A stretch of DNA of 40,250 nt from an uncultured Caulobacteraceae bacterium (GTDB lineage: Bacteria; Pseudomonadota; Alphaproteobacteria; Caulobacterales; Caulobacteraceae): the NCBI GenBank assembly GCA_964249945.1, contig CAXUEN010000001.1, positions 309-40,558 of the forward strand. The letters run 5' to 3'. How positions within the stretch are numbered: position 1 is the first letter of the stretch; the number at the start of each line of letters is the position of its first letter. The position numbers and the translations under genes are program-made. The notes beneath the pieces were generated by a model that worked only from the letters and a program-made list of their open reading frames with translations, did not search any database and was not told where the DNA came from. Shown piece after piece: positions 9,665-30,838 of this stretch.

Positions 9665-10387
9665 TCAACCGGCCGGCCGATCGCCGTCGATCCATACGCC
9701 AGAGAGGACCAGGCCGTGGACGATGCGCCAGCGGCCCGAGCAGCGCGGCCATGGTTCCGGTTCACCGGCCTCTCGGCTCGGGTCGACCGTAAACGCCCCG
9801 CCTTGCGGTGTCTGGACTCGCGCAAAGGATACGGTCGCGGCGTCGAAGTTCAGGAAGCGCCGGGTCAGAGGGTACTGGCACTTGTAGAAGGCTTCCTTGA
9901 TGCTGAAGATCACCTTGGGCCACGCGACCGCCTGCAGGCCCGTCCCGTCGGCGAAGGCCGGGTAGTCGGCCGCACTGCAGACCAGACGCTCGACGCCAGG
10001 CGTCAGGGGCTCGGCGGACTCCGCATCCAGGCCCAGGCGCTTGGAGCGAAGCCAAAGTTGGAGTGCCAACACGGCGGCGCAGAAGTCGTCGGTGTGGGTG
10101 ATGCTGCCCACGAACCCCTCCGGCCAGACCGGCGCGCGACCGGGGCCGACCGGCAGGGCCACCGCCGGTCCGCCGAGCTTGCTCAGGGCATGGCGCGCGC
10201 TGGCGCGTCCGGCGGCGAACTCGCTGCGCCGCGCAGCCCGGGCCTTCGCGACGGCGTCCCACTCCTCGGGGAACAGCGGGGCCTCGTGCATCGTGTCGTC
10301 GGCGACGCAGGCGGACACCGGCATGGGGAAGAGGCCGGCTATGTCGGCCGCCTTGACCCCCACGGCGGTCGAAAGCGCGGTCAGCAA
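9665..10387 (-). CDS. 4'-phosphopantetheinyl transferase, EntD-like
   Basis: Motifs RRSEFAAGR, RAPVWPEGFVGSITH, GLDAE and FSIKEAFYK. The TTG start overlaps the stop of the upstream Crp gene. Confidence 0.92.
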   Translation of the reverse strand: MLTALSTAVGVKAADIAGLFPMPVSACVADDTMHEAPLFPEEWDAVAKARAARRSEFAAGRASARHALSKLGGPAVALPVGPGRAPVWPEGFVGSITHTDDFCAAVLALQLWLRSKRLGLDAESAEPLTPGVERLVCSAADYPAFADGTGLQAVAWPKVIFSIKEAFYKCQYPLTRRFLNFDAATVSFARVQTPQGGAFTVDPSREAGEPEPWPRCSGRWRIVHGLVLSGVWIDGDRPAG

Positions 10388-11175
10388 AGCGTCGCCACCC
10401 AGGGCGCGCGCTTCGGTGCGTCTTCAGGAGAGGCGTCCATGTCGGGCAGTGGCACGAACTCGGTGATCATCTTCAGCCGTTCAGGCTCCATGATGGTGAC
10501 GAAGCCGCCCTTCACGTCCGCCAGGCGCTCGCGCCGCAGTTGCTGGATGATTCGGTTGACATGGACGATGCTCATGCCCAGCACGTCGCTCAGCAACTCC
10601 TGCGTGAGCGGCATCGGAAATCGATCGCCCTCGGATACGCCGGCCATGCCCAGGCGGTGCTGCAGGTCCAGCAGCCAATGGCCCAGGCGTTCCACCGCGG
10701 TCCGCCGGCCCAGACGCACCACCTGTTCGGCCAGCTGCGCCTCTTCGATATGCCCAGCCAGCGTCAAGGCCTTGCGCAGCTGCACGTGACCGCCGGTATT
10801 CCGATCCAGCGCTTCCAGAAGAGGCGTCAGGTCGCAGAGCTGCGAGCTGACGAGCGCGACCGTCGTCTTGGCGATGAAGGGGTTCGGGTGGGCCCCGACC
10901 AGCTCGCCTGGCACCATGGTGCTGATCACCTGGCGCCTGCCGTCGGCGAAGAGATTGAGACGGCCTACCCAGCCTGAGACGACGAAACTGCGCCTGGACC
11001 GCTTCTGGTCCGGCAGCGGGACCCCGCCGGGAATCTCGCGGGTTCTGGAGGGGGACGTCGATTGGATCAGGTCGAAATCGTCTCCGTCCAACTTGGCCAG
11101 ACTCGAAAGTTTGTGACTTAGGACTCTTGTGCTGAGACTAGGCTTGCTTCGAAGATTCTCACTGCATGACAGCAT
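10381..11175 (-). CDS. Crp/Fnr family transcriptional regulator
   Basis: cNMP-like domain (DGRRQVI...PGE), LGRRTAVERLGH helix and HTH PLTQELLSDVLGMSIVHVNRIIQQLR; no Fnr Cys cluster. Confidence 0.9.
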   Translation of the reverse strand: MLSCSENLRSKPSLSTRVLSHKLSSLAKLDGDDFDLIQSTSPSRTREIPGGVPLPDQKRSRRSFVVSGWVGRLNLFADGRRQVISTMVPGELVGAHPNPFIAKTTVALVSSQLCDLTPLLEALDRNTGGHVQLRKALTLAGHIEEAQLAEQVVRLGRRTAVERLGHWLLDLQHRLGMAGVSEGDRFPMPLTQELLSDVLGMSIVHVNRIIQQLRRERLADVKGGFVTIMEPERLKMITEFVPLPDMDASPEDAPKRAPWVATLC

Positions 11176-11224
11176 ACGCCACCCACCTCATGCTCCGAGG
11201 GTGGCGCAATCTGATAGAAAGGAT

Positions 11225-11239
11225 ATAACCTAGGTTTAC
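11225..11239. promoter_or_regulatory. Degenerate CtrA-like box / palindrome upstream of the crp-PPTase unit
   Basis: ATAA-CCTAGGT-TTAC versus consensus TTAA-N7-TTAA (2 mismatches); contains the palindrome AACCTAGGTT. Confidence 0.25.
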
Positions 11240-11356
11240 ATACGTCACATTTCGAAGCCAAAGGCGCCCCCGAGGGAGTGATCCGATGAGGGCGCCGTCC
11301 CTGCATTGCTGATCTTTTTCTTTTCGGATCAGCCGCCACTCGCCCCGGCAGCGCCA

Positions 11357-12532
11357 TCACGCCAGGCTTCCGATCTCGGTGAGCAGATGGGTGGCGGCTG
11401 CACGCCAGGTGAACCGCGCCGCTCGGCGATAGCCCGCCAACCTCTTGAATTGTCTAAGCTCCGGCAGAGTCTTCAGCGACATGATCTGCTCCACCCAGTC
11501 TTCTGGGGAGAAGATATCCGCATACAGGATCGCATCGCGGCAGACTTCCGGGATGGCGCCGGCGGGGGCGGCTACGACAGGGCAGCCGCAGAGCATCGCC
11601 TCGACGGGCGGCAGGCCGAAGCCTTCCGTGCGGGACGGGAACAGCAGGCAGAGGGCGGATTCGTAAAGGGCGCGCAGTTCGCAGTCATCGACGGCGCCTG
11701 CGAAGATGGCGGCCACCGGCGGCCGCAGGCCCGCCGCCTCCAGGCTCGCCCGCGTCGCCCCCAGCACCACCAGCTGCACAGCCGGAAGGGCCCGCTCGAA
11801 GGCTTGGAACACCACCTGGACGTTCTTGTAGACGGCGCCGGAGCCGAACACCAAGGCGTAGGATCGATCGCTGAGGCCGAGGCGATCCAGCACGCCGGCG
11901 TCCGGCTTCACGTCGAGGATGTGATCGGCTCCATTGTAGATCACCACGGTCTTGTCGTGCTGCGACACCTTGAATGCGGCCAGGCTGTCGCGCGCATATT
12001 CAGAGACAGTCAGCACCCGGTGACTGGTCGAGGCGATCAAGGGGGTCAGGAGCTTGTAGCCGAGCTGGAAACGGCGCGGAAACGACTCTGGAGAGATCAG
12101 GAACTGGGCGTCATGAATCATCGACAGTTTCCGTCGATGCGCCAGCGGCGCCAAATTGGCGAGATTGACCAGCACCCCGCCGGCGGCCCGCCAGGGCAGC
12201 ACCACTTGCTCCCAAGCCTGGTGATGGCCAAACCGCTGTCCAACCTTGCGGATGCGGGCAAGTGGAGGCGCCCAGTTGAGCCTGCGCGGAAGCAGCAGCC
12301 GCAGGTCGAGATGGGGAAACTCGTCGGTGGCCGCCAGGATGTCCAACGCCTGCACGAGCCTGTCCGCGGTGCGGTGGACGCCATTCAGCACGCCGATGTA
12401 GAACTTGCCGTTGATGTAGATGGTGCGCTTGCGCGAGGTCGGCGCGTGCGCGGCGATGGTGATGCCGGCGACCGGCTCGCCAGGCCTGTGCCGAACGAGC
12501 AATTCAGGTCTTGCGACCAGTTCCGACGACAT
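11357..12532 (-). CDS. Glycosyltransferase family 4 (MtfB/WbpY-like)
   Basis: Motifs IHDAQF, TVSEYAR, YKN and FPSRTEGFGLPPVEAMLCGCPV. Confidence 0.92.
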   Translation of the reverse strand: MSSELVARPELLVRHRPGEPVAGITIAAHAPTSRKRTIYINGKFYIGVLNGVHRTADRLVQALDILAATDEFPHLDLRLLLPRRLNWAPPLARIRKVGQRFGHHQAWEQVVLPWRAAGGVLVNLANLAPLAHRRKLSMIHDAQFLISPESFPRRFQLGYKLLTPLIASTSHRVLTVSEYARDSLAAFKVSQHDKTVVIYNGADHILDVKPDAGVLDRLGLSDRSYALVFGSGAVYKNVQVVFQAFERALPAVQLVVLGATRASLEAAGLRPPVAAIFAGAVDDCELRALYESALCLLFPSRTEGFGLPPVEAMLCGCPVVAAPAGAIPEVCRDAILYADIFSPEDWVEQIMSLKTLPELRQFKRLAGYRRAARFTWRAAATHLLTEIGSLA

Positions 12533-12683
12533 AGATGATCACCTGACGTGAAGCTTTCGCTTCGATGGTCCCGTATCGCCTGAACACTGTCCGTAAACGG
12601 CAACAATTGTGGGGGTAAAATGCGGTTGATCGGGAACGCAAAACCTAACAATTCATGCCGTTGCAACATGGGGCCTTAAAGAT

Positions 12684-15245
<2,562 letters not shown>

Positions 15246-15320
15246 CGCGAGCGATCGAGCCTGGGCCGTCAGCAACGCCTTGCTGGTTTGAGCGGGTCTG
15301 CTGGGCCTCGTGCACGCGGG

Positions 15321-15456
15321 ATCGTGATGCGCGTGAACCGCATCCTGCAGGCGCTGCGGAAAAAGCGGTTGGTCAGCTTCAAGGGCCGGCGACCCTGATC
15401 CCGAACTTCGAGCGGTGGAAGGAGAAGGCCGGGTTCAATGCGAAGGACTTGCACCC
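15321..15456 (+). pseudogene. Relic of the C-terminal HTH region of a second Crp/Fnr regulator
   Basis: Reads IVMRVNRILQALRKKRLVSFKGRR, then after a frameshift TLIPNFERWKEKAGFNAKDLHP. This matches the Crp tail pattern VHVNRxLQxLR..LI...G..LTI.D.E.L...AGF...YLH. Confidence 0.65.
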
Positions 15457-16748
15457 GGGTTCGCCGCTATGAGGTGGAGGCTGGAACGTTTCATCGGTTG
15501 GGGTCGCGCGGTTCGGGGACCCACGTCCAGGCTCCAAAGCTCGGAGGTGGTGTCGAGGATGCGGCGTCCATGAAGGCCGGGATCGAGGAAGCTGCGAACG
15601 GCGTGCGCTGCGGTGGGCGGGGTCTGGAGGCGGGCGTCCGGCGCTCGCAGCAGGCCTTCAAGCGCCGCGTCGAGGGCGTGGGGCTGACCGGGGTCGAACA
15701 CCGCGCCCCCTCCGAAACGCGCGACCAGCTCCGACGCGCCGGCGCGGCTGGACACCAGCACCGGCCTGCCCTGGGCCATGGCCTCGGCCACCACGAGGCC
15801 CCAGGTCTCCGGCCAGCGGGACGGGAGAGCCACGACCCGGCAATGCTGCATGAGGGCGAGCGCCTCTGCGTGCCCGGCCCAGTCGATCACCGCGCCGGGG
15901 CCGAGCCTCTCGACGATCGATGCTTCAAGCGAGCCGCTGCCCACGAAGACGGCGCGCCGCCCGCTCCGCTGGACGGCCTCGCAGAGGTCCATGACGCCCT
16001 TCTCCGGCTCCAGCCGGCCGAAATAGCCGACGTCGTACACGGGGGCCCGTTCAGCCTGGATGAGCCCGGTGAGAAGGGCGTCCGGAAGGGGATTGTGGAC
16101 CAGACGGTGGGTCTCTTCGGGCAGCAGCTCGCGCGCCATCGTCCGGCTGACTTCGGAGATGTGCAGGAAGGCGCGTCGCGACGGTGGACCGCTCATCATC
16201 AGGCTCTTCACAGCCTGCCGCGCCACGCGCCCCAGCTTGTGGGCGTAGCCCGAACGATCGCAGGCGCAAGCTATACAGCCCATCCCCATGGGCTTTAAGT
16301 CGCAGGGCTGCTGCGTGCGAAAGTTATAATAGGCTCCGTTCGGACAGAACCAAAAGTAATCGTGCATGTATATCAGCAGCTTGAAAGGCGAGAGCAGGGC
16401 GATGACCGACGGCGACAGCCAACGTGTCCACTGATGCAGCACGATGACGGTGGTGGCCGGATCGAGATCGTTCAGCAGGGGAGCGAGCGCCCGCCGGGCG
16501 GCGGGATTGTAGATCGCCTTCAGCCCGGCGCCCTTGACGCCCGAACGGAGGTCCTCGCCGTCCATCAGGGTCACGTCAGGCCGCTGAGCGACGTCGTTCG
16601 GAGTGAAGTAGCCGCTGACCAGCTGTACACGGGCGCCCATGCCGGCCAGGATTTCGAAGCTGTTCAGCGCGGCGATCCCGGCCCCGCCCGTCGCCGCCCC
16701 GCCCGCGCCGAAGTAATCCGACAGGAAGACGAGGCGGCCCTGCCTCAT
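15435..16748 (-). CDS. Glycosyltransferase family 4
   Basis: Motifs HDY..CP, GRLEPEKG and PSRWPETWGLVVAEAMAQGRPV. Confidence 0.9.
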   Translation of the reverse strand: MRQGRLVFLSDYFGAGGAATGGAGIAALNSFEILAGMGARVQLVSGYFTPNDVAQRPDVTLMDGEDLRSGVKGAGLKAIYNPAARRALAPLLNDLDPATTVIVLHQWTRWLSPSVIALLSPFKLLIYMHDYFWFCPNGAYYNFRTQQPCDLKPMGMGCIACACDRSGYAHKLGRVARQAVKSLMMSGPPSRRAFLHISEVSRTMARELLPEETHRLVHNPLPDALLTGLIQAERAPVYDVGYFGRLEPEKGVMDLCEAVQRSGRRAVFVGSGSLEASIVERLGPGAVIDWAGHAEALALMQHCRVVALPSRWPETWGLVVAEAMAQGRPVLVSSRAGASELVARFGGGAVFDPGQPHALDAALEGLLRAPDARLQTPPTAAHAVRSFLDPGLHGRRILDTTSELWSLDVGPRTARPQPMKRSSLHLIAANPGASPSH

Positions 16749-17896
16749 CAGCCCTGCGGCGCCAAGGGGCGCGCCATCGCCTGCTCGACCTGGATGTCGG
16801 CGGACGCCGCGGCCGGCTGGCGCTTGCGGAAGAGCTGGGAGTAGAGGCTCAGCAGCGAGTCGTTCATCCGTTTGGCCATGAAGCCGGCCAGATAACGCTC
16901 ACGGCCTTTCTCGCCCATCGCCCGGAGCGTCTGGGCGTCGTCCGTCAGCAGGGCGGCCCTGAGCGCCTCCGCCGAGTCCGGAGGAACCAGCCGGCCGGTA
17001 ACGCCGTCCTCCACGAGTTCGCGGAGCCCGCCCACGCAGGAGGCGATGACCGGCTTGCCGGCGCGCATGGCCTCCGCGGCGACCAAGCCAAAGCCTTCCC
17101 AGCGCGAGGGCACGACCACGACGTCGGCCGCCTGGAGTTGGGCGGCGGTGGCTGTGGGAGGGTCGAGCCAGCCTAGCATCTCCACGTTCGGCGGATGCTT
17201 GATGGCCAGACTGTCGGCCACCGACGCCCCCGCTACCCGCACGCAGACCCGGTCCTGAAGCGGGGCGACGGCGGCGAGCAGCACGTCGACGCCCTTCTGC
17301 CGGTCGAGCCGCCCCACGAACAGCACCTTCAGCCGCGTGTCGTCCCAGGACGCGGGCGCCGTGGGCGGCGCCTCGGGTATGCCGCTGGTCACCAGGCGCA
17401 CCTTACGCGGCTCGATGCCGATCCTATGCGCCTCCTCAGCCTCGAAGCGTGAGATGGCGATGACGCAGTCGCAGGCGCTGGCCATGGCCCGCTCCGCCAT
17501 GGCCATCGCGCTCATCTTCCAGGCCGCCGCCTCGACGTTGAAGGACCAGCCATGCGGGCAGTAGACGATGGCGGGTCGCTTGCGCCGCATTCCATACATG
17601 GCGCGCACCACCAGCCCGGCGAAAGTGGAGTGGGTGTGGATCACCTCGGGCTGGAAGCTCTCCACTTCCCGGGCGACCGCCTGGGCCATCGCCCTCAGGC
17701 TGGCCACGGTGCGGCCAGGCCGGTCGAAGGTCGCCACGACGCCATCGGGCAGGGGACCGATCTGGTCGCGGTGCTGGGCCGGCGCGACCAGCCTCACATT
17801 GGATCGTCCGAGCGCCGACACCTGGTAGGGCAGAGAGTAGGCCAGGTAGCTGCCGACGCCGCCCTTGGCCGACTCTGCGACGTGCAATATCCTCAT
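16748..17896 (-). CDS. Glycosyltransferase family 4
   Basis: Starts MRILHVAESAKGGV; motifs VGRLDRQKG and PSRWEGFGLVAAEAMRAGKPV; its stop overlaps the next ATG. Confidence 0.92.
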   Translation of the reverse strand: MRILHVAESAKGGVGSYLAYSLPYQVSALGRSNVRLVAPAQHRDQIGPLPDGVVATFDRPGRTVASLRAMAQAVAREVESFQPEVIHTHSTFAGLVVRAMYGMRRKRPAIVYCPHGWSFNVEAAAWKMSAMAMAERAMASACDCVIAISRFEAEEAHRIGIEPRKVRLVTSGIPEAPPTAPASWDDTRLKVLFVGRLDRQKGVDVLLAAVAPLQDRVCVRVAGASVADSLAIKHPPNVEMLGWLDPPTATAAQLQAADVVVVPSRWEGFGLVAAEAMRAGKPVIASCVGGLRELVEDGVTGRLVPPDSAEALRAALLTDDAQTLRAMGEKGRERYLAGFMAKRMNDSLLSLYSQLFRKRQPAAASADIQVEQAMARPLAPQG

Positions 17897-17978
17897 AATA
17901 GTTCCAGGCCTGACGCGGGTCACTCATCCATAATGTGCGCCTTCCCCGGCCACGCCGCCATTTCAGTTGGTCCAGTCA

Positions 17979-17993: not shown

Positions 17994-18069
17994 GGATGCA
18001 CCATCGGAAGCTTCGTTTGAGACCTTCAAATGACGTTGGCGGCTAGACTATTTACGTCTGAATAGGTTG

Positions 18070-19946: not shown

Positions 19947-19970
19947 ATAGACGGCATGACCAAAACCGTC

Positions 19971-21791: not shown

Positions 21792-23276
21792 GTGGATACC
21801 AGCGCGAACACGATGCTGGACTTTGCGCCATCCGCACGAACTTCGGTGCGCCGCACGCTGGAAATCTGCGCCTTCGCCTGCCTGCTGGTGGTCAATTGGA
21901 TCCTTGCGGCGCAGGTCCCCTCCCAGATCTTCTCCTACACGTCGCTGCTGCTGTTCGTCTGGATGGCGCTGCTGCTGATCCGCATCCATCCGCGCGCGGC
22001 GATCCTGGCGCTGCCGCTGCTGATCACCCGCGGCGCCACCCTGATTTCGCTGGTGTTCATCGAGGCGGGCTCGGCCATGCCGGAGATCGGGCGGAGCGGC
22101 GCGGCGGGAGACGCCAGCGCCTCCTTCACCGCCTTCACCACCCTGCTGTTCCTGGTCTTCGCCCTGGTGTTCGCCGCGGGCGAGAGGGCGGTGCTGAGTT
22201 CCGCGCGCTCACCCCTGCTCGACAAGATCGTGGCGCTGCTGCGCTGGCCGGTCATCGGGCTGTGCGCGGCGCTCGGCCTGATGGCCGTGGCGCAGGGGCT
22301 GCACACCGGCTTCCCCGTTTTCGAGCACGTTGACCGCTTCTACTACCGCCGCTTCTACGGCCAGGGGATCGTGCTGGTTCTGCTGGACAACAAGTTCCTG
22401 CTGGGCGCGGCGCTCGGCAGCGTCGCCTTCGGACGCACCTCGCCGATGCTCACCCGGGCCGCCGCCAACTGCACCCTGGGCGGGCTGCTGGGGATATTCT
22501 TCCTGTTCGGCGACAAATTCTTCACCCTGCTGACCATGGGAACGTACTTCCTCATGCCCTACCTGCTGCGCAACGAGCAGGCGCTGCTGAAGACCTTCGC
22601 CAAGGGCTGGCTGATCGCGACGCTGGCGCTCGGCGGCGTGTTCGCGGCCACCCTCTACATCTACTCCGACTATGGCGACGCGCCTCTCTCGGTGGGTATG
22701 ACCAAGCTCGGCGACCGGATAGCGGGCCAGGGCGAGCTGTGGTTCGTGGCGACCCAGGACGACCGGCGCCTGCTCGCCTACGACCCCAACATCGTGCGAA
22801 GTTACGCCACCTCGCTCAATGCCGAGGATCCCGCCACCTCGGACTTCGAGACCGGGGTCGAGACCTTCTTCTTCATCAACCGCTATACGCCCCAGCCGCT
22901 GCGCCAGTCGTTCCACAAGAACCAGGGCTGGGTGCAATTGACCATGGGGTCCGAAGCTTTGGCGCTCGCCGGCTTCGGCTACGCCGGCGTGGCCCTGCTG
23001 ATGGTCGCCGCCGGGGTGATCGCGGCGCTGCCGGCGCTGTATCTGCGGCGCGCCTTCGCCTCGGAGTTCCCGCTCAGCATCGTCATGGCGCTCTGGATGT
23101 CGCTGCAGGCCTACGAGCTGCTGCAGCAAGGTGCGGTGTGGGCGATCTTCGCCCGGGGGCAGCTCCGCCGCTTCCTGGTCTTCGTAATCTTCGAGGTGGC
23201 GCTGTTCGCTCTAAACCGCGCCCAGCGAAGCGGCCGCGCCGTCCAGGGCGAGCCGGCCCGCATCGTCGTGGCCTGA
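21792..23276 (+). CDS. Polytopic membrane protein, probable Wzy polymerase
   Basis: More than 10 TM segments with a large loop (RIAGQGELW...); the only candidate polymerase in a Wzx/Wzc locus. Start is probably GTG 21792 (after GAGGG) or ATG 21813, not 21465. Confidence 0.65.
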   Translation: MDTSANTMLDFAPSARTSVRRTLEICAFACLLVVNWILAAQVPSQIFSYTSLLLFVWMALLLIRIHPRAAILALPLLITRGATLISLVFIEAGSAMPEIGRSGAAGDASASFTAFTTLLFLVFALVFAAGERAVLSSARSPLLDKIVALLRWPVIGLCAALGLMAVAQGLHTGFPVFEHVDRFYYRRFYGQGIVLVLLDNKFLLGAALGSVAFGRTSPMLTRAAANCTLGGLLGIFFLFGDKFFTLLTMGTYFLMPYLLRNEQALLKTFAKGWLIATLALGGVFAATLYIYSDYGDAPLSVGMTKLGDRIAGQGELWFVATQDDRRLLAYDPNIVRSYATSLNAEDPATSDFETGVETFFFINRYTPQPLRQSFHKNQGWVQLTMGSEALALAGFGYAGVALLMVAAGVIAALPALYLRRAFASEFPLSIVMALWMSLQAYELLQQGAVWAIFARGQLRRFLVFVIFEVALFALNRAQRSGRAVQGEPARIVVA

Positions 23277-24532
23277 TGCGCATCCTGCACGTGAGTTCAC
23301 TCTACCCGCCGGGCGTCGTCGGCGGCGCGGAGAAGGTGGTGTCCATGCTGGCCGAAGGGCAGGCGGCGCAGGGCGACACGGTGGGCGTGGTGCACCTCAC
23401 CCGCGCCGGGGGCGACCTGCGCCATCAGGGCGGCGTCGAAGTCCGTCCCCTGCAGAGCCGCAACCTGCTTTGGATCGAGGACGTCCAGGCGCACGCGCGC
23501 CCCGTCACCATGGCCAACAAGCTGCTGCAGCAGGTCAACGTCTGGGCCACGGCCGACATCGCGCGCGAGATCGCCGACTTCGCCCCCGACGTGGTGCACA
23601 CCCACTCCATGGTCGAACTGCCGCCCATGGTCTGGCGCGCGGCGAAACGGCACGGTGCGGCGGTGGTCCACACCCTGCACGACTATGACCTGCTGTGCAG
23701 CCGCGCGACCCTGTTCAAGCACGGCCAGCCCTGCGCCAGCCTGCATCCCTCCTGCGCGGCGCTGAAGGCCTGGAAGGGTGTCTTCGTCAAAGACATCGAC
23801 GCGGTGGTCGCCGTCTCCCAGCCCGTGCTCGACGCGCATCTGGCGCACGGCCTGTTCCAGGACCTCGGTCCCGATCAGCGCCGGGTGATCTGGAACGGCG
23901 TGACGCGGCGGCCCGAAGCGGAGCCGCCCACACGCACCGGCGTCTTCACCTTCGGCTTCCTCGGCCGGCTGGTGCCGGAAAAGGGGCTCGGCGTGTTGCT
24001 GGACGCTTGTCGCCTCTTGGCGCCCGAGGGCTGGCGCTTGCGCATCGCGGGCCGGGCGCCGCTCGGATCGCAGGGCTTCGCGGCGCAGGCGCTAGGCCTG
24101 CCCGTGGAGTTCCTCGGTTTCACCGATCCAGCCGCCTTCCTCGCCTCGGTGGACGTGCTGGTCGCGCCGTCGATCTGGGCGGAGCCGTTCGGCCTGACCA
24201 TCGTGGAGGCCTTCGCTTCGGGCGCCGCGGTGATCGGCTCCGATCGGGGCGCCATCGGCGAGCTGGCCGGTGCGATCGGGCCCGAGTGGGTCGTGCCGGC
24301 CGACGACGCTGGGGCGCTGGCGGCCCGCATGGGCGCGGTGCTGCAAGGTGGCCGCGCGGCCTTGCCGGACCCGGGCGCGTTCGAAGCCATCCTCCAGGCC
24401 GCCTCGCCGGAGCGGATGACGTCGGCTTACCTGGCGCTCTACGCCGAGCTGGACACGCGCCGGATCGCCCGCCCCGCTCCGCACGCCCGCTTCACGCCTT
24501 CGAGGTCCGCCGATGCGTATCCTGCATCTTAG
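23276..24532 (+). CDS. Glycosyltransferase family 4 (ExpE7-like)
   Basis: Starts MRILHVSSLYPP..VGGAE; motifs HTLHDY, GRLVPEKG and PSIWAEPFGLTIVEA; TGATG coupling to the wzy-like gene. Confidence 0.92.
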   Translation: MRILHVSSLYPPGVVGGAEKVVSMLAEGQAAQGDTVGVVHLTRAGGDLRHQGGVEVRPLQSRNLLWIEDVQAHARPVTMANKLLQQVNVWATADIAREIADFAPDVVHTHSMVELPPMVWRAAKRHGAAVVHTLHDYDLLCSRATLFKHGQPCASLHPSCAALKAWKGVFVKDIDAVVAVSQPVLDAHLAHGLFQDLGPDQRRVIWNGVTRRPEAEPPTRTGVFTFGFLGRLVPEKGLGVLLDACRLLAPEGWRLRIAGRAPLGSQGFAAQALGLPVEFLGFTDPAAFLASVDVLVAPSIWAEPFGLTIVEAFASGAAVIGSDRGAIGELAGAIGPEWVVPADDAGALAARMGAVLQGGRAALPDPGAFEAILQAASPERMTSAYLALYAELDTRRIARPAPHARFTPSRSADAYPAS

Positions 24533-25784
24533 CACCCTCTATCCGCCACACATCGTGGGCGGCGCGGAGCGTTCGGTCGCCCTGCTGGCGGAGCAGCAGG
24601 TGAAGCTCGGGCACCATGTCGGCGCAGCCTGCCTGTCGCCTGACGGCGCCTCGCGCTCGGAGCGGAACGGGGTCAGCGTCTACCGCATGGCCCACCACAA
24701 CGACTTCTGGATGGAGGACTGGCCCAAGCACAGCCAGGGCGAGCGGGAACGGGCCAAGTTCAAGCAGCAGTTCAACTTCGCCATCGAACGGAGCTTCGGC
24801 GAGGTGCTCGACGCCTTTCAGCCCGACATCCTGAACACCCACTCGATGGTGGACGTCTCCACCCGCACCTGGCTCGCGGCCCACAGGCGCGGCGTGCCGA
24901 TCGTCCACACCTTAAGGGACTACGACCTGGTCTGCGCGGCGAGTTCCATGTTCCGCGAGAGCGGCCCGTGCGCGCACCGCCACCTGAAGTGCCGCGCGCT
25001 GACCTTCACCAAGGGGCTGGACCAGCGCCGCGTCAGCGCTGTCACCGCCGTGGGCCAGGAGGTCCTGCGCCGCCACCTGGAGCTGGGCTTCTTCCACCAT
25101 GTACCGCAGGCGCTGCGCCGGGTGATCTGGAACACCGCCGAGATCGAGGGCGTGTCTCCCGACTACGTGCGGCCGCAACGGAGCGAGGGACCGTTCGTCT
25201 TCGGCTATCTGGGGCGCATCAGCCCGGAGAAGGGCGTGGAGACCCTGCTGAAGGCCTGCCGCCTGTTGCCGGCTGAAGGCTGGCGGCTGGTGGTGGGGGG
25301 CTCCGCTCCCGGATCGATGGCTCCCATCCACGCGCTCGCCGAGGGCCTGCCGGTGAGCTTCTCCGGCTTCGTGGAGCCCAAGGCGTTCTTCGAGCAGGTC
25401 GACGTGCTGGTGACCCCTTCGCTCTGGGCCGAGCCCCTGGGGCGCACGGTTCTGGAGGCCTATCGGGTCGGGGTCCCGGTGCTCGGCTCAGCCACAGGCG
25501 GCATCGCCGAGCTGATCGACGACGCCGAATGGCTTTCGCCGGCCGGCGATGTCGAGGCGCTGGGGGAGCGTATGTCTTGGGTGCTCGAGCGCGGGCGCGA
25601 GGCGCTCCCCCCGCCGGGGCGCTTCGAGCGGGTGGTGAGCGCTACGGGCCGCCAGGTGGTGGCGGACCGCTTCGTGGACGTCTATTGCGCCACGCTGGAG
25701 GCGACGACCCGTGGAAGCCTTGCTCCCGCCAGGCGCGAGAGGAGGGCGGCCCTGATCGCCGCGAACGGCGCCGGGGTTCAGTAG
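24513..25784 (+). CDS. Glycosyltransferase family 4 (ExpE7-like), paralog of the upstream GT
   Basis: Starts MRILHLSTLYPP..VGGAE; motifs HTLRDY, GRISPEKG and PSLWAEPLGRTVLEA. Confidence 0.92.
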   Translation: MRILHLSTLYPPHIVGGAERSVALLAEQQVKLGHHVGAACLSPDGASRSERNGVSVYRMAHHNDFWMEDWPKHSQGERERAKFKQQFNFAIERSFGEVLDAFQPDILNTHSMVDVSTRTWLAAHRRGVPIVHTLRDYDLVCAASSMFRESGPCAHRHLKCRALTFTKGLDQRRVSAVTAVGQEVLRRHLELGFFHHVPQALRRVIWNTAEIEGVSPDYVRPQRSEGPFVFGYLGRISPEKGVETLLKACRLLPAEGWRLVVGGSAPGSMAPIHALAEGLPVSFSGFVEPKAFFEQVDVLVTPSLWAEPLGRTVLEAYRVGVPVLGSATGGIAELIDDAEWLSPAGDVEALGERMSWVLERGREALPPPGRFERVVSATGRQVVADRFVDVYCATLEATTRGSLAPARRERRAALIAANGAGVQ

Positions 25785-26443
25785 GCGCCGCGGCGGCGCA
25801 GCACCGCCGGCACGGTCATCACCAGCACCTTCATGTACAGCACGTTGTCGCGGCTGCGTGCGTAGAGCACGTCCATGGCGACCCTGCGCCGATAGCTGAC
25901 GGCGCTCCGCCCGCTCACCTGCCACAGCCCGGTGATCCCGGGACGGAGCGAGCAGTAAACCTTGAAGTAACGGCCGTATCGGGCGATCTCCGCCTGGACG
26001 ATCGGCCGGGGACCCACCAGGCTCATCTCGCCGCGCAGGACATTCAACAGCTGCGGAAGTTCGTCCAGGCTCGTCTTCCGCAGGAAGGCGCCGATCCAGG
26101 TGATGCGCGGATCGATACGGAGCTTCTGGGTCAGATCCCACTCGAGGCGCGCCGCCTCGTCCTGCAGGAGATGCGTTGTCAGGTGCTGGCCTGCGTTCAC
26201 GCGCATGCTGCGGAACTTCATGCAGTCGAAGCTTCGCCCGTCGCGCCCAATGCGGGCATGGGCGAACATCGGCGGTCCACCATCCTCAAGCCAGATGCAG
26301 GCCATGATGGCCAGCAGGATAGGCGAGAGGAGCAGAATCGCCAAACCGGAGAAGAAAAGCTCAAATGGATTTCTCCCCTGAACGGCTTGCTCCCGTTGGT
26401 CACCTATTTTCATGTCAATTGATGTCACATCATACTCCGTCAC
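25778..26443 (-). CDS. Priming undecaprenyl-phosphate sugar phosphotransferase (ExoY/WbaP C-terminal type)
   Basis: Motifs KFRSM, DPRIT.IG.FLRKTSLDELPQL.NVL.GEMSLVGPRP and PGITGLWQVSGR; start may be ATG 26413. Confidence 0.95.
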   Translation of the reverse strand: MTEYDVTSIDMKIGDQREQAVQGRNPFELFFSGLAILLLSPILLAIMACIWLEDGGPPMFAHARIGRDGRSFDCMKFRSMRVNAGQHLTTHLLQDEAARLEWDLTQKLRIDPRITWIGAFLRKTSLDELPQLLNVLRGEMSLVGPRPIVQAEIARYGRYFKVYCSLRPGITGLWQVSGRSAVSYRRRVAMDVLYARSRDNVLYMKVLVMTVPAVLRRRGAY

Positions 26444-26694
26444 TAGACGCGGCGATCTCGACGGACGCTAGTCTTAGAGCATCTAACTTAGTCGTGGAGG
26501 CCATGTTCCATCAGCGGTCGGAGAACGACATCGACTAACGACGTCGAACGCAGAAGTCCGCCAAGCTTCCGCCCTCAATTGTTAATGCTTATAATTGCCA
26601 GCGACCTAGGGTTCTGCGCGGCAGGGGAAAAGCAAAACGGAACGATATGCGTTCCGCCGCGGGACTTCCCGTGTCGAAGGATCGGTGCATCTTG

Positions 26695-27264
26695 ATGAGA
26701 TCGCTGTTGACCTTACTTGCCGTGACGGGGCTCGGTCTGGCCTGGACGCCCGGCTATGCGGCCCTAGCGCCGCCGGCTGAGCAAGCCGGCCCGCCCTCCA
26801 CCGCGCTCGACTACCGCCTGGGCGCCGGCGACAAGCTCAGGGTCGCGGTCTACGGCGTCGACACCCTGGGAGGCGAGTTCGAGGTTCCCGGCGGCGGCAG
26901 CATCTCTCTGCCGCTGATCGGCGAGATGCAGGCCGCGGGCCTGACCACCCTCGAGCTGCAGACGCGCATCGAAACGGCGCTGCGCCAGGGCTATGTCAAG
27001 GACCCGCACGTCAGTGTGCAGGTGGAGAACTACCGGCCCTTCTTCATCCTGGGCGAGGTCAACAAGCCGGGCGAATACCCCTTCACAGACCGGTTAACGG
27101 TGCTGAACGCCGTCGCCGAGGCGGGCGGCTTCACCTACCGCGCGCGCACCAGGATATTCCGCCGCCGCCATGGCGACCGGAACGGGGAGGCGCAGGAGAA
27201 GCTGACCGCCGATAGCCTCGTGCAGCCGGGCGACACCATCCGTATCCAGGAGCGCTCGTTCTGA
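26695..27264 (+). CDS. wza: Polysaccharide export protein, short OPX/Wza-like
   Basis: Poly_export motifs YRLGAGDKL, ISLPLIG and GEVNKPG, ending PGDTIRI; signal peptide; no lipobox or C-terminal OM helix. Confidence 0.9.
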   Translation: MRSLLTLLAVTGLGLAWTPGYAALAPPAEQAGPPSTALDYRLGAGDKLRVAVYGVDTLGGEFEVPGGGSISLPLIGEMQAAGLTTLELQTRIETALRQGYVKDPHVSVQVENYRPFFILGEVNKPGEYPFTDRLTVLNAVAEAGGFTYRARTRIFRRRHGDRNGEAQEKLTADSLVQPGDTIRIQERSF

Positions 27265-27269
27265 ACCAC

Positions 27270-28601
27270 GTGAGTCTCGCCAAGGCGCCGATCCGAGGGC
27301 TCGGGGGCGCCGTGGCCCTTCTTTCGGCCGCCGCCGCCTCTCCGAGCCACGCCCAGCTCCAGGCGCAGGTGCTGGCCCCGTCGCCATCGCCGGCGCCGCA
27401 GCCCGCCGCGTCCCTGTTCGCCCGCGACCGCGACACGCCAGTGGCGGAGCGCACCTTCGCGGGCTTCGCCCCCGTCGGCCTGCCGCTCGGAGAGTTCCGC
27501 CTCTTCCCGCAGCTCGGAGTGAGCGCCATCGGGACGAGCAACGTCTTCGAGAATGACGAACGCAGTCACGGCGACTTCCTGGGCGAGCTGACGCCGGGGC
27601 TCGACCTGCAGTTCGACAACTCCCAGCTGGTGCTGGACGCCTACATCAACGCCGAGATCGACCGCTTCGCCCAGTTCCATTCCGAGAACGAGAACCAGGG
27701 CACCGTCGGCGTCAATGTCAGCCGCGCCCTGCCGGGCTACAGCTCCATCTTCGCAGGCGGATCCTTCGGCTACGTGTCCCTCCCGCGCATCTCGCCGGAG
27801 TCGCCGGTGAACGCCGGGGCGCCGCTCCGCTACACCGACAGCCAGGCCGATGTGGGCGGAGCCTACGAGCAGAACCGGGTGCGGATCACCGGCCGTTTCG
27901 ATCTGGAGTCGCTGGCCTTCGATCCGGGCGTCCTGATCGGCGGGGGCGAGCTTCACACCGGCGACCACGACCGCGCCCGCTACACCGGCACGGGCCAGAT
28001 CGCCTATGCCCTCAGCCCCGCGACCGACCTCTATGTCGGCGGATCCTACAACGTCCTCAACTACCGGCTCGACCCGCCGAACGTGGCCTTGAGGCGCGAC
28101 TCCCACGGCTACGAGGCCTTCGTGGGCACGAGCTTCGAGGTGACCGGCGTCGCCCGCGCCGACATCCGCGTCGGCTATCTGGACCAGGACTTCGATGCGA
28201 GCCAGCTCGGCCGCATCTCAGGCGTCGGCGCGAGGGGCCAGCTCGAATACTTCCCGAGCCGGCTGACCACCGTGACCTTCCAGGTCCGCCGATCGGTCGA
28301 GGACTCCGGCATACCCAACACCGGCGGCTTCCTGGAGACCGGCGGCTCCGTCGCCGTGGATCACGAATATCGCCGCTATATCATGCTGAACACCAAGGCC
28401 AGCTACTTCGACGATCAGTACCAGGGCATCGGCCGCCATGACGGCATCCTGTTCTTCACCACGGGTGGAACCTACCTTTCCCACCACGGCTGGAACCTGA
28501 AGCTGGCGTACGAATACTATCACCAGAACTCGCACGGCTGCGACTGCAGCGTGAACTATGACGATCACCGCGCGGTCGCCACGCTGACGTTCAAGTACTG
28601 A
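27270..28601 (+). CDS. Outer-membrane beta-barrel protein of the EPS export locus (BBP2-like)
   Basis: Signal peptide, amphipathic beta-strands and C-terminal beta-signal ATLTFKY; lies between OPX and Wzc. Confidence 0.85.
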   Translation: MSLAKAPIRGLGGAVALLSAAAASPSHAQLQAQVLAPSPSPAPQPAASLFARDRDTPVAERTFAGFAPVGLPLGEFRLFPQLGVSAIGTSNVFENDERSHGDFLGELTPGLDLQFDNSQLVLDAYINAEIDRFAQFHSENENQGTVGVNVSRALPGYSSIFAGGSFGYVSLPRISPESPVNAGAPLRYTDSQADVGGAYEQNRVRITGRFDLESLAFDPGVLIGGGELHTGDHDRARYTGTGQIAYALSPATDLYVGGSYNVLNYRLDPPNVALRRDSHGYEAFVGTSFEVTGVARADIRVGYLDQDFDASQLGRISGVGARGQLEYFPSRLTTVTFQVRRSVEDSGIPNTGGFLETGGSVAVDHEYRRYIMLNTKASYFDDQYQGIGRHDGILFFTTGGTYLSHHGWNLKLAYEYYHQNSHGCDCSVNYDDHRAVATLTFKY

Positions 28602-28648
28602 AGCCTAGATACCAAAGCTCACCTATCGAAGCCCAAGGACAACGCCGC

Positions 28649-30838
28649 ATGGACGCCCCCCTCGCGCTGCCGTATCCCGCCGGCGGCCTCGCTGCGCCTG
28701 CGCCTCCGCGCGACTCCGAAGGGGTGATGAAGGCGATCAACACCTATCGCCGGCACGCGCCTCTGTTCCTGGCCGTGCTGGGGTTGATCGTGCTGCTGGC
28801 GCTGGCCTACAGCCTGCTGCAGACGCCGCGCTACACCGCCACCTCTTCGGTGATGATCGCGCCGCGCAAGGCCGAGGTCGGCGCGGAGAGCACCGCCCCC
28901 ACTGACGGCGTCACCGACGCCAACGTCGACAGCCAGGTGGAGGTGCTGAAGTCCGGCCTGCTGGCCGGCGCTGTGGTGGACGCCCTGCACCTGACCGACG
29001 ACCGCGCCTTCATGGCCAGCCTCGATCCGCCGGGTCCGCTGGCCTTCCTGCACGGCGGGGCGAAACGGCCCCCGGTCTACATCAGCCGGGCCGCCGCGGT
29101 CGACAAGCTGGAGAAGCGCCTGGCCATCCGCCGGGTCGCCCAGACCCTGGTGCTGGAGATCGGCTTCTCCAGCTCCAACGCCGATCTCGCCGCCCGCATC
29201 GCCAACGGCTACGCCAACGCCTTCGTGGCCCAGTCCATGGGCTTCAAGCTGCAGGACAGCCGCTCGTCCAACGGCCTGCTCGCCTCCCAGCTCGACAAGC
29301 TGCGTGCACAGGTTGAGGCGGCCGAGACCGCCGTCAGCCAGTACAAGGTGCAGCACAACCTGCTCAGCGTCGCCGGCTCCACCATGGCGGAGCAGGAGAT
29401 CGTATCCCTCGACCAGGAGGTCGCCGCCAACCGCGCCTCCGCCGCCGAGGCCGCAGCCCGGCTCGGCACCGCCCGCCAGCAGATGGCGCGCGGCTCCCAC
29501 GGCGACGACCTGGGTGAATCGCTTAACTCGCCGGTGATCCAGGAGCTGCGCAAGGAGCGGAGCGAAGCGAGCGGCAAGCTGGCGGACCTGCAGGTCCGTT
29601 TCGGCTCGCGCTTCCCCGACGTGATCTCCACCCAGCAGCAGATCGCCGACATCGACCGCCAGATCGACGCGGAGATCAAGCGCCTGATCTCCAACCTCGA
29701 CGCCCAGAACCAGGTGGCCGCTCGCCGCGTCGGCTCGCTGCAGGGCAGCGTGGGCTCCGCCCGCGGCCAGCTCACCACCGCCAATACCGCGAGCGTGCGG
29801 CTGAACGAGCTGCAGCGCACCGCGGACTCCGAGCGCACCCTCTACGAGGGCGTGCTGAACCGGGTGAAGGAGACCCAGACCCAGGAGGCGACCGCCGAGC
29901 CGGACGCGCGGGTGTCGAACTACGCCGTCACGCCGCCGTATCCGAGTTCGCCCAAGCTCGCCATCAACCTGCTGATCGGCGTGCTGCTCGGGACCGGGGC
30001 GGCCATAGCCCTGGTGGTGCTGCGCGAGGAGACAGACACGGGCCTTCGCACCCTGGAGGACGTGGAGCAGCGGCTGCGCGTGCCCTACTTCGGGGCCTTG
30101 CCGACGCTGAAGTCCTCGGTGCACCGGCCGCGCTCGCGCAGCGCCACCGACTCGCTGCAGCAGCACGCCTCCTCCAGCTTCGCCGAGGCGTTCCGGGGCT
30201 TGGCCGCGGCGCTGGTGAACTCCACGGGCCGGCCCGGCCCGAAGATCGTGGTCTTCACCTCGGCCCTGCCCAAGGAAGGCAAGACCACCGCCGCGGTCTG
30301 CTTGGCCCGCATCACCGCCATGGCGGGGCTGAAGGTGGTGCTGGTCGACTGCGACCTGCGCCGCCCGTCGGTGGCCCAGACCTGCCGGATCACCCCGCGC
30401 ACAGGGCTGCTCGACGTGCTGGACGGCCGCACGAGGCTGGACGAGGCGCTGATCACCGACGAGAAGACCAACCTGGCGATCCTGCCGCTGATGGCGGAGG
30501 TGACCGCCGACCGCTCCCCCGTCACCTCGCCCGAGATGGACCGCCTTCTGGCCGAGCTGAAGTCGCGCTTCGACCTGGTGCTGCTCGACACCTCTCCCGT
30601 GCTTCCCGTCATCGAGAGCCGCCTGCTGAGCCAGAAGGCCGACGCCGTCGTCATGATGGTCCGCTGGCGCAAGACCCCGGAGAAAGCCGCCAGCATGGCC
30701 ATCCACCTGCTGCGCGAGCTGAACGTGAAGATCGCGGGCGTCGCGCTCACTCGTGTGGACCTGAAGGCCCAGGCGCGCTCCGGCTACGGCGACCCCACCT
30801 TCTACTACTCCCGCTACAAAGGGTACTACGTCTCCTGA
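28649..30838 (+). CDS. wzc: Wzc/GumC polysaccharide co-polymerase with BY-kinase domain
   Basis: Two TMs flanking a coiled coil; Walker A SALPKEGKTT, A' VDCDLRRP, B LLDTSP; Tyr tail YGDPTFYYSRYKGYY. Confidence 0.95.
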   Translation: MDAPLALPYPAGGLAAPAPPRDSEGVMKAINTYRRHAPLFLAVLGLIVLLALAYSLLQTPRYTATSSVMIAPRKAEVGAESTAPTDGVTDANVDSQVEVLKSGLLAGAVVDALHLTDDRAFMASLDPPGPLAFLHGGAKRPPVYISRAAAVDKLEKRLAIRRVAQTLVLEIGFSSSNADLAARIANGYANAFVAQSMGFKLQDSRSSNGLLASQLDKLRAQVEAAETAVSQYKVQHNLLSVAGSTMAEQEIVSLDQEVAANRASAAEAAARLGTARQQMARGSHGDDLGESLNSPVIQELRKERSEASGKLADLQVRFGSRFPDVISTQQQIADIDRQIDAEIKRLISNLDAQNQVAARRVGSLQGSVGSARGQLTTANTASVRLNELQRTADSERTLYEGVLNRVKETQTQEATAEPDARVSNYAVTPPYPSSPKLAINLLIGVLLGTGAAIALVVLREETDTGLRTLEDVEQRLRVPYFGALPTLKSSVHRPRSRSATDSLQQHASSSFAEAFRGLAAALVNSTGRPGPKIVVFTSALPKEGKTTAAVCLARITAMAGLKVVLVDCDLRRPSVAQTCRITPRTGLLDVLDGRTRLDEALITDEKTNLAILPLMAEVTADRSPVTSPEMDRLLAELKSRFDLVLLDTSPVLPVIESRLLSQKADAVVMMVRWRKTPEKAASMAIHLLRELNVKIAGVALTRVDLKAQARSGYGDPTFYYSRYKGYYVS

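What the first reader, a model, noticed from the sequence alone, without database searches (positions are those of the whole stretch)
9665..30838. Candidate thiotemplated aminoacylation (glycylation) system built into a Wzx/Wzy exopolysaccharide locus
Seen: a C-domain-less A-T-TE gene (12684-15245) sits between GT4 genes inside a complete EPS locus, with an EntD-type PPTase 2.3 kb away. There is no other NRPS module, tailoring oxidase or small-molecule exporter. Known: carrier-dependent aminoacylation of envelope polymers exists (DltA/C/B/D for teichoic acid D-Ala; AlmE/F/G for lipid A Gly), but those systems use separate proteins. Inference: here one fused enzyme activates an amino acid and transfers it to the Und-PP-linked repeat unit or a nucleotide sugar, directly or through the AT3 acyltransferase. 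The result would be a charge-modified capsule or adhesin. I do not know of a characterised locus with this architecture.
Basis: partly seen in the sequence, partly recalled or inferred. Interest (0 to 1): 0.9.

Follow-up and report, generated by a model that had tools for sequence, protein, structure and literature searches.

The report
Glycine-loading enzyme inside polysaccharide gene cluster
A one-protein peptide-synthetase module predicted to load glycine travels, with its activating enzyme, as an optional part of a surface-polysaccharide gene cluster in Caulobacteraceae and Sphingomonas, and likely hangs glycine on the sugar polymer, which would be an unusual job for this kind of enzyme, though no product has been shown.

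Summary
An intact A-T-TE gene without a condensation domain lies inside a Wzx/Wzy locus, 2.3 kb from a PPTase. Its substrate code is glycine-type (DILQIGVVWK) and its thioesterase has a Cys-Asp-His triad (GWCRWG). It defines a narrow clade in Caulobacteraceae and Sphingomonas: 21 of 26 distinct members (21 of 22 on contigs long enough to judge) lie beside orthologous polysaccharide genes, and the trees match. Three Sphingomonas genomes keep the whole locus, including the AT3 acyltransferase, but lack both A-T-TE and PPTase. So the pair is an optional module, and an AT3 relay is unlikely. Nine of 10 carrier genomes have no condensation domain. Best reading (0.55): the thioesterase transfers glycine directly onto the lipid-linked repeat unit. 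Main rival (0.25): a small glycine product made by a co-regulated gene. The chemistry is untested, and three literature searches found no characterised example. This scan noted the same idea before on other DNA, with C-containing modules (e1-2800890, e1-9894976).

The parts
6051..7178 (-). 375-aa protein, likely beta-helix glycan-processing enzyme (paralogue 1); left end of the conserved locus
   Evidence: 66-78% identical copies in the Sphingomonas and Caulobacteraceae loci; only a weak pectate-lyase-like Pfam hit, E 0.011; no PDB relative; the GH28-like motif resemblance is recalled
7326..8291 (+). Ferritin-like (PF13668) protein with a twin-arginine/lipoprotein-like N-terminus
   Evidence: conserved in the loci with and without A-T-TE; N-terminus printed
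8393..9520 (+). 375-aa paralogue 2 (67% identical to paralogue 1)
9665..10387 (-). 4'-phosphopantetheinyl transferase, predicted to prime the T domain
   Evidence: lies in the locus in 12 of 14 A-T-TE-bearing genomes checked and is absent from 3 of 3 A-T-TE-less genomes
10381..11175 (-). CRP/FNR-family regulator
   Evidence: a homologue is conserved in the loci
11357..12532 (-). GT4 glycosyltransferase a, divergent neighbour of the A-T-TE in most loci
12684..15245 (+). C-less A-T-TE protein (853 aa). A domain code DILQIGVVWK (glycine-type); T domain GGYS (Ser579, nt 14418-14420); TE with Cys707 (nt 14802-14804), Asp734, His827, motif GGWCRWG
   Evidence: T-TE model pLDDT 90.3, best fold match AB3403 4ZXH; dN/dS 0.21-0.38
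15435..16748 (-). GT4 glycosyltransferase b
16748..17923 (-). GT4 glycosyltransferase c
18067..19251 (+). AT3 (Acyl_transf_3) membrane acyltransferase, likely an O-acyltransferase independent of the A-T-TE
   Evidence: retained in all three A-T-TE-less loci
19248..19946 (+).
   Evidence: atlas: Methyltransf_24-like clusters, score 0.98, family on 13-16% of members; weak IRX15/GXM hit in 6 of 12 members, best E 0.014; model pLDDT 87.4 folds like COMT-type O-methyltransferases; retained in A-T-TE-less loci
20129..21556 (-). Wzx flippase
21846..23276 (+). Likely Wzy polymerase (DUF6418, about 10 predicted membrane helices); start uncertain, frame open from 21465
23276..24532 (+). GT4 glycosyltransferase d
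24513..25784 (+). GT4 glycosyltransferase e
25778..26443 (-). Initiating polyprenyl phosphoglycosyltransferase (Bac_transf)
26647..27264 (+). Wza/OPX export protein
27270..28601 (+). Outer-membrane beta-barrel (BBP2)
28649..30838 (+). Wzc co-polymerase / tyrosine kinase

Best explanation
This is a conserved Wzx/Wzy polysaccharide locus carrying an optional two-gene module, a C-less A-T-TE protein and a PPTase, that likely attaches glycine to the sugar repeat unit. Steps: (1) the PPTase primes Ser579 of the T domain (inferred from co-gain and co-loss); (2) the A domain adenylates glycine and loads it on T (predicted from the code); (3) glycine passes to Cys707 of the TE (inferred from the conserved triad); (4) the TE acts as a transferase and hands glycine to a sugar hydroxyl, or an amine, of the undecaprenyl-PP-linked repeat unit on the cytoplasmic face, before Wzx flips it (inferred; the weakest step); (5) Wzy, Wzc and Wza polymerise and export a glycylated, more zwitterionic polymer. 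The polymer is predicted to be made without glycine when the module is absent. AT3 and the methyltransferase likely add independent O-acyl and O-methyl groups. Shown here: anatomy, conservation, linkage, co-loss, purifying selection. Not shown: substrate, acceptor, linkage type, phenotype.
For: Linkage: 21 of 26 distinct GWCRW-type loci have an orthologous locus gene (40% identity or more) within 12.5 kb; 4 of the 5 others are on contigs too short to judge. The link survives rearrangement: between GT4a and GT4b here, at the locus end in Sphingomonas, between Wzy and GT4e in L031. In 301 genomes of the window's family, the 5 with the Wzy marker are the same 5 with the clade TE. Trees of the A-T-TE and of six locus proteins largely agree; pairwise identities correlate (r 0.95, 13 loci, pairs not independent); the three module-less loci fall among module-bearing ones, pointing to losses. 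The PPTase sits about 20 kb from the TE, at the far end of the locus, in 7 of 9 Sphingomonas-genus carriers checked, and is missing together with the A-T-TE in G070, G171 and G202. No C domain in 9 of 10 carrier genomes, so ordinary peptide-bond formation in trans is unavailable. The code matches AB3403 at 9 of 10 positions. All locus-linked members with a readable code keep Gln278 and Trp331; the one clearly unlinked member (L042) has lost both. Precedents: type I TEs that transfer intermolecularly (FrsA, Sln9; PMC7794379 passages); Pks13 TE releasing onto trehalose (PMC12933137 passages); glycine added to the lipid-linked repeat unit of VPS and dispensable for assembly (PMC13463779 passages). 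A sister NRPS has a polysaccharide gene nearby in 19 of 30 loci, 4 of them inside a second, different EPS-type locus.
Against: No biochemical, structural-carbohydrate or genetic data exist for any member. Linkage cannot separate chemistry from co-regulation; the A-T-TE is usually transcribed divergently from GT4a and is at the locus edge in Sphingomonas. All five GT4s, Wzx and Wzy are kept in module-less loci, so nothing in the core depends on it. One clade member (L042) has no polysaccharide gene in the 30 kb of contig read, and 3 more paralogues (L030, L044, L048) sit on short contigs of genomes that already have a linked copy. 11 of 30 sister loci show no polysaccharide gene with my queries. 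A review calls the glycine in the AB3403 structure 'a representative substrate' and its pathway uncharacterised (PMC10510592 passages), so the reference for the code is imperfect. No aminotransferase was found in the window's locus, so an amide acceptor is not evident. In G009 the A-T-TE is split by a transposase and frameshifts, along with damage to other locus genes. Kin are not independent: the 21 linked loci may reflect one ancestral association.
Confidence: 0.55

Rival explanations
1. The A-T-TE makes a small glycine product by iterative TE chemistry (Gly-Gly, cyclo-Gly-Gly, or a glycyl amide or ester of a small metabolite or lipid). It stays with the locus because of shared regulation, not shared chemistry.
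For: It descends from a peptide-making family: nearest structure AB3403, sister A-T + P450 + C-A-T-TE cassette. Divergent transcription, a CRP-family regulator and a ferritin-like gene in the locus. The locus is complete without it. An unlinked paralogue exists (L042). A-T-TE dimerising synthetases are known (recalled).
Against: It stays with the locus through several rearrangements, and the PPTase is embedded 20 kb away across the polysaccharide genes. No conserved exporter or tailoring gene follows it: downstream genes differ from locus to locus. No sigma-EcfG-type promoter match (pattern recalled) in the window, against 1.1 expected.
Confidence: 0.25
2. Dlt-like relay: glycyl-T hands glycine to the AT3 membrane acyltransferase, which moves it across the membrane onto the polymer, with the TE only editing.
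For: AT3 lies within 12.5 kb in 14 of the 21 linked loci. AT3 genes also lie beside 6 of 30 sister loci. Carrier-to-membrane-transferase relays are known (AlmF to AlmG, PMC4278540 passages; DltC to DltB, recalled).
Against: AT3 is intact in all three loci lacking A-T-TE and PPTase, so it is not dedicated. The TE triad and its WCRWG motif are invariant in 11 of 11 aligned TEs, more than an editing role would need. AT3 was not detected in L029 (20.7 kb) or L031 (9 kb contig).
Confidence: 0.1
3. VPS-like amidation: the amine of tethered glycine attacks an activated uronic acid of the repeat unit, giving a uronyl-glycine amide, and the TE then releases the product.
For: UDP-glucose dehydrogenase and/or a nucleotidyltransferase adjoin several loci (L034, L043, L051, L061, L065), which suggests a uronic acid. 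VPS carries such an amide.
Against: It needs an activated sugar carboxylate and a condensing catalyst. No C domain in 9 of 10 genomes and no CapK/VpsH-like or ATP-grasp gene in the locus. Activating glycine's own carboxyl would be wasted.
Confidence: 0.07
4. The gene is a decaying hitch-hiker with no current function.
For: Lost in 3 of 8 Sphingomonas-genus genomes with the locus; disrupted in G009.
Against: dN/dS 0.21-0.38 in the 5 A-T-TE or TE comparisons, similar to AT3 (0.32); intact catalytic residues down to about 40% identity; co-maintained PPTase.
Confidence: 0.03

Closest known systems
AB3403 of Acinetobacter baumannii (PDB 4ZXH/4ZXI), C-A-PCP-TE termination module
   Same: Best hit for the A-domain core, the TE profile and the T-TE fold; code DILQLGVVWK against DILQIGVVWK; Cys-type TE (GGWCFGG).
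   Different: AB3403 has a C domain and receives an upstream acyl donor; this protein has none, has WCRWG, and lies in a polysaccharide locus.
AlmE/AlmF/AlmG lipid A glycylation (Vibrio cholerae)
   Same: Glycine is activated and carried on a phosphopantetheine arm, then transferred to an envelope glycoconjugate, adding positive charge (PMC4278540 passages).
   Different: Three separate proteins, a dedicated transferase AlmG and a lipid A acceptor. Here A and carrier are fused to a TE, and the locus is shared with Sphingomonas, which lacks lipid A (recalled).
DltABCD teichoic acid D-alanylation
   Same: Carrier-dependent aminoacylation of an anionic surface polymer (recalled; PMC3783018 seen only as a search listing).
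   Different: D-Ala, free-standing DltA and DltC, MBOAT DltB and DltD. The A domain scores 279.5 against a DltA cut-off of 559.85; no MBOAT in the ORFs scanned.
VpsH glycine modification of Vibrio polysaccharide (VPS)
   Same: Glycine is added to a Wzx/Wzy repeat unit at the lipid-linked stage and is dispensable for assembly (PMC13463779 passages).
   Different: VpsH is a CapK/acyl-CoA-ligase-like enzyme proposed to activate a carboxylate before amide formation; no carrier, PPTase or TE is described.
Transferase-type type I thioesterases: FrsA-TE and Sln9-TE; Pks13-TE
   Same: The TE moves a carrier-bound acyl or aminoacyl group to a separate acceptor: a depsipeptide hydroxyl or the sugar trehalose.
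   Different: Those donors are N-acyl amino acids or mycolates from modules with C or KS domains, and the acceptors are small molecules, not a polysaccharide repeat unit.
Leu-Gly P450 NRPS cassette of Sphingomonadaceae (uncharacterised; A-T + P450 + C-A-T-TE + PPTase)
   Same: Related TE, glycine-type last module in most, Cys nucleophile; a Wzx-like or EPS gene is nearby in 19 of 30 loci.
   Different: Has a C domain, an upstream module with code DAWFLGNVVK (Leu assignment recalled) and a P450; its TE lid is about 20-30 residues longer; product unknown.

Membership tests
Wzx/Wzy-dependent polysaccharide locus | Initiating PGT plus glycosyltransferases | tested here: met
   Bac_transf and five GT4 genes
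Wzx/Wzy-dependent polysaccharide locus | Wzx flippase, Wzc co-polymerase, OPX exporter | tested here: met
   (Wzc exceeds the TIGR01007 cut-off)
Wzx/Wzy-dependent polysaccharide locus | Wzy polymerase | tested here: inconclusive
   DUF6418 only by Pfam; atlas neighbours at 0.99 include Wzy clusters; about 10 predicted helices
NRPS termination module of AB3403 type | Condensation domain | tested here: not met
   none in the protein or in the window's 75%-complete genome
NRPS termination module of AB3403 type | Glycine-type A-domain code | tested here: met
   9 of 10 positions identical; sequence prediction only
NRPS termination module of AB3403 type | Cys-nucleophile TE with Asp and His | tested here: met
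   Cys707, Asp734, His827
AlmEFG system | Separate ligase and carrier proteins | tested here: not met
   A and T are fused in one ORF
AlmEFG system | Dedicated AlmG-type acyltransferase | tested here: not met
   no lipid A acyltransferase family among 46 window ORFs scanned
AlmEFG system | Lipid A acceptor | not testable with these tools
   needs lipid mass spectrometry
DltABCD system | DltA-type D-Ala ligase | tested here: not met
   TIGR01734 279.5 bits against cut-off 559.85; glycine-type code
DltABCD system | MBOAT DltB and DltD | tested here: not met
   no such Pfam hit in the window ORFs; the membrane acyltransferase is AT3
VpsH/CapK-type amino-acid amidation | CapK-like ligase without carrier | tested here: not met
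   the protein is an NRPS A domain above the TIGR01733 cut-off (396.6 against 317.4) with T and TE
A-T-TE alpha-keto-acid dimerising synthetases (RalA, AtrA, EchA; recalled) | A domain lacking the amine-binding Asp235 | tested here: not met
   Asp240 is present and invariant in 17 of 17; the defining feature is recalled
Transferase-type type I TE (FrsA, Sln9, Pks13) | Intermolecular acyl transfer to an external acceptor | not testable with these tools
   needs an in vitro assay; no sequence signature is established in the passages read

The most novel reading that the evidence does not exclude
A single fused A-T-TE protein is a self-contained glycan aminoacyltransferase: its Cys thioesterase glycylates the lipid-linked repeat unit of a Wzx/Wzy polysaccharide. 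It would be the minimal member of a wider NRPS lineage, including the Leu-P450-Gly cassette beside Wzx flippases and a second EPS locus, that decorates polysaccharides with amino acids and dipeptides instead of making free peptides.
Probability: 0.45. Interest if true: 0.82.

Novelty: new variant of a known kind. Interest (0 to 1): 0.66.

Why it matters
If true, it adds a route for amino-acid decoration of bacterial surface glycans distinct from Dlt/Alm-type relays and from VpsH, and a new acceptor class for NRPS thioesterases. It would reassign a class of orphan 'NRPS-like' genes from small-molecule synthesis to envelope chemistry. It is directly testable: cultured Sphingomonas strains carry the locus, natural module-less loci exist, and 9 of 10 carrier genomes checked have no condensation domain to confuse the result. 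A soluble glycan aminoacyltransferase could also be a tool for tuning polysaccharide charge.

Tried and rejected
Plasmid collection, tblastn with the TE at E 1e-15: no match. Class-wide sample with the 375-aa protein: found only in the window's genome, 1 of 351. Sigma-EcfG-type promoter pattern (recalled): 0 matches in the window against 1.1 expected, and 6 scattered matches over 20 related stretches; no support for a shared stress promoter. The idea that the methyltransferase N-methylates glycine (sarcosine or betaine ester) was rejected: it is retained in module-less loci and folds like O-methyltransferases. The idea that the GT4s glycosylate an NRPS product was rejected: all five are kept without the module. 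The GT4a-PPTase fusion in L029 (669 aa) was not taken as evidence: that locus has a partial CRP gene, frameshifts and transposases. My first code extraction was off by one at two positions and was corrected. A PMC id recalled for the AB3403 paper was wrong and returned an unrelated paper; the primary paper was not read. Literature searches for a characterised NRPS in an EPS locus found none; PMC8313283 (passages) concerns unlinked loci and a diffusible product. The library lacks most subscription journals, and no supplements were opened. No complex prediction was run, since I claim no binding. In the large genome samples only 9 candidates per genome were scored, so I rechecked the three module-less genomes with all candidates scored.


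Full report
1. Observation. The ORF list and family scans confirm the anatomy. 12684-15245(+) encodes 853 aa with A, T and TE domains and no condensation domain. Its neighbours are GT4 genes on the opposite strand, with only 151 bp upstream. The PPTase (9665-10387, -) is 2.3 kb away, beyond a CRP-family regulator and GT4a. The rest of the locus is AT3, Wzx, a DUF6418 membrane protein whose atlas neighbours include Wzy polymerases, two more GT4s, a PGT, Wza, a BBP2 barrel and Wzc. It is a class I SAM methyltransferase: atlas score 0.98, weak IRX15/GXM hits in 6 of 12 members, model pLDDT 87.4 folding like COMT-type O-methyltransferases. Comparison also shows that the locus extends left to 6051, taking in two 375-aa paralogues and a ferritin-like gene. 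Same-genus relatives are titled uncultured Caulobacteraceae; the window's genome is 75% complete.

2. The enzyme. The ten-residue code is DILQIGVVWK (correcting). The best PDB match for the A core is AB3403, whose aligned residues read DILQLGVVWK. A review states that AB3403 was solved with AMP and glycine 'as a representative substrate' and that its pathway is uncharacterised (PMC10510592, passages). Glycine is therefore a good prediction, not a fact. The amine-binding Asp is invariant in 17 of 17 aligned proteins, which separates the protein from alpha-keto-acid dimerising A-T-TE enzymes (recalled). The T domain has GGYS (Ser579). The TE has a cysteine nucleophile in GGWCRWG, with Asp734 and His827; all three are invariant in 11 of 11 aligned TEs. 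AB3403 also has a Cys TE. The T-TE model is confident (pLDDT 90.3) and matches AB3403 best. All 27 stored proteins with GWCRWG, of the 267 returned, are 880 aa or shorter and lack a C-domain motif, so the motif marks a C-less clade. Its lid is about 20-30 residues shorter than in the sister C-A-T-TE proteins. That Arg708, Trp709 and the open, basic lid suit an anionic sugar acceptor is my inference; I could not inspect the pocket. dN/dS was 0.21-0.38 in the 5 A-T-TE or TE comparisons, against 0.32 for AT3 and 0.13-0.18 for Wzx and GT4a.

3. Neighbourhood test. Scans with the TE alignment gave 21 genome loci and 9 metagenome loci, from Caulobacteraceae MAGs and Sphingomonadales. With the window and L072, and after merging near-identical TEs, there are 27 groups, 26 with the WCRW motif. 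Twenty-one of the 26 have an orthologous locus gene within 12.5 kb. Four (L030, L044, L048, L052) are on contigs too short to judge. One (L042) is clearly unlinked over the 30 kb read; it is also the one member that has lost Gln278 and Trp331, and its genome has a linked copy too. Gene order differs: mid-locus here, at the end in Sphingomonas, between Wzy and GT4e in L031. In 301 genomes of the window's family, 5 have the Wzy marker and the same 5 have the clade TE; the other 2 TE-positive genomes carry the sister type. In 301 genomes of the Sphingomonas genus sample, 8 have the Wzy marker and 6 the clade TE; 5 share both about 10 kb apart, and the sixth TE (G272) is at a contig edge beside GT4a. 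The 375-aa marker was not found in 350 other genomes across the class.

4. The module is optional and includes the PPTase. G070, G171 and G202 have the locus from GT4a to the 375-aa gene, with AT3 and methyltransferase, but no A-T-TE, and their CRP gene abuts the ferritin-like gene where the PPTase otherwise sits. Whole-genome checks found no T-TE match and only one ACPS-family hit each, likely the housekeeping AcpS. Of 14 carrier genomes checked, 12 have a PPTase in the locus: adjacent in G045, 2.3 kb here, about 20 kb away in seven Sphingomonas-genus genomes, beside GT4a in G009, and beside locus genes on separate contigs in G002 and G003. G158 and G272 have a second PPTase elsewhere. A tree of six concatenated locus proteins (16 loci) and a tree of the A-T-TE (19 loci; frameshifted L029 left out) largely agree, and the module-less loci fall among module-bearing ones, although the nodes placing them are weak (0.54-0.62). 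Nine of 10 carrier genomes have no condensation domain; the family search rang in 4 of 14 control genomes.

5. Sister system. I read 27 of those 29 matches plus three further loci. Most are A-T + P450 + C-A-T-TE + PPTase. Fourteen of 30 have a Wzx-like gene nearby, 4 lie in a different EPS-type locus (GH26, GT2, GT4, Wza), 1 has a GT2, and 11 show no such gene with my queries. This suggests, but does not show, that the lineage is repeatedly tied to glycan genes. An earlier scan note described this cassette with unknown product (e1-5279631). Two notes described C-A-T-TE modules in EPS loci of other soil bacteria (e1-2800890, e1-9894976); I did not check those two.

6. Mechanism. The simplest reading of a primed, glycine-loading, C-less module with a conserved TE triad, embedded in and co-inherited with a polysaccharide locus, is that the TE is the transferase and the repeat unit is the acceptor. 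Type I TEs can transfer intermolecularly (FrsA, Sln9; PMC7794379, passages), and Pks13 releases its product onto trehalose (PMC12933137, passages). Glycine on a lipid-linked Wzx/Wzy repeat unit that is dispensable for assembly is shown for VPS, by a different enzyme (PMC13463779, passages). The protein has no signal peptide by inspection and needs ATP, so transfer would be cytoplasmic, before flipping. With no aminotransferase in the locus, an O-glycyl ester is more likely than an amide. I give this 0.55. A small glycine product from a co-regulated gene gets 0.25, an AT3 relay 0.10, VPS-like amidation 0.07 and a non-functional gene 0.03. Against my reading: there is no experimental product, linkage may reflect one ancient association, the core genes do not need the module, and unlinked relatives exist.

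7. Comparison and novelty. It likely works like AlmEFG (PMC4278540, passages) and Dlt (recalled), but fails membership of both: fused carrier, no AlmG or MBOAT, DltA score below cut-off. It is not an AB3403-type termination module because it lacks C, and it is not VpsH-like. Four full-text searches found no characterised NRPS-type module acting on a Wzx/Wzy polysaccharide; the library omits most subscription journals, and I opened no supplements. I class it as a new variant of a known kind (carrier-dependent aminoacylation of envelope glycans), interest 0.66: real, conserved, unexplained and easy to test, but chemically unproven, and the idea has come up before in this scan on other DNA.

Noticed in passing
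L045:3653-12357, L074-L102: Sister cassette A-T (code DAWFLGNVVK) + P450 + C-A-T-TE (Cys) + PPTase, matched in 26 of 301 Sphingomonas-genus genomes; a lone Wzx-like flippase lies nearby in 14 of 30 loci read, often converging on the PPTase, and 4 loci sit in a GH26/GT2/GT4/Wza locus.
   Followed up: partly
window 6051-7178 and 8393-9520: Two 375-aa paralogues, about 70% identical to Sphingomonas copies (the best-conserved genes of the locus), with no Pfam family over cut-off, no PDB relative and no evident signal peptide; likely beta-helix glycan enzymes.
   Followed up: partly
window 7326-8291: Ferritin-like PF13668 protein with a twin-arginine/lipoprotein-like leader, conserved in the locus; three more paralogues lie on contigs C67 and C19 of the window's genome, near CRP-family genes.
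   Followed up: no
L058:17521-18429 (also L059-L061, L064, L066, L070): Sphingomonas versions of the locus carry a GH99-family glycosidase between Wzy and GT4d that the window lacks.
   Followed up: no
L042:8240-10765 (G045:C8): Unlinked GWCRWG A-T-TE paralogue with a changed substrate code (no Gln278 or Trp331), in a genome that also has the linked copy; it may load another substrate or act in trans.
   Followed up: partly
L029:5057-19239 (G009): The locus appears to be decaying or mis-assembled: transposase within the A-T-TE, an IS66 transposase, frameshifts, and an in-frame GT4a-PPTase fusion of 669 aa that includes a CRP remnant.
   Followed up: partly
L103:372-2909 (G000:C366): A second A-T protein in the window's genome, cut by the contig end and with a different code region; a possible second client of the PPTase.
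   Followed up: partly
L067:17167-19886 and L068:7-1898 (G171:C9): A second, partial copy (375-aa gene, Wzy, ferritin-like gene, AT3) beside ParB and ArdC genes, suggesting that part of the locus moves on a mobile element.
   Followed up: no
L033:12015-17462, L039:12040-17550, L034:6181-8334, L073:6417-11696: A large ORF of about 1,800 aa (an autotransporter in L039) lies in or beside several loci; a possible adhesin partner of the polymer.
   Followed up: no
G000:C83 and C77: The window's genome has at least one further EPS export set (PGT, Wza, BBP2, Wzc on C83; another Wzc on C77).
   Followed up: no
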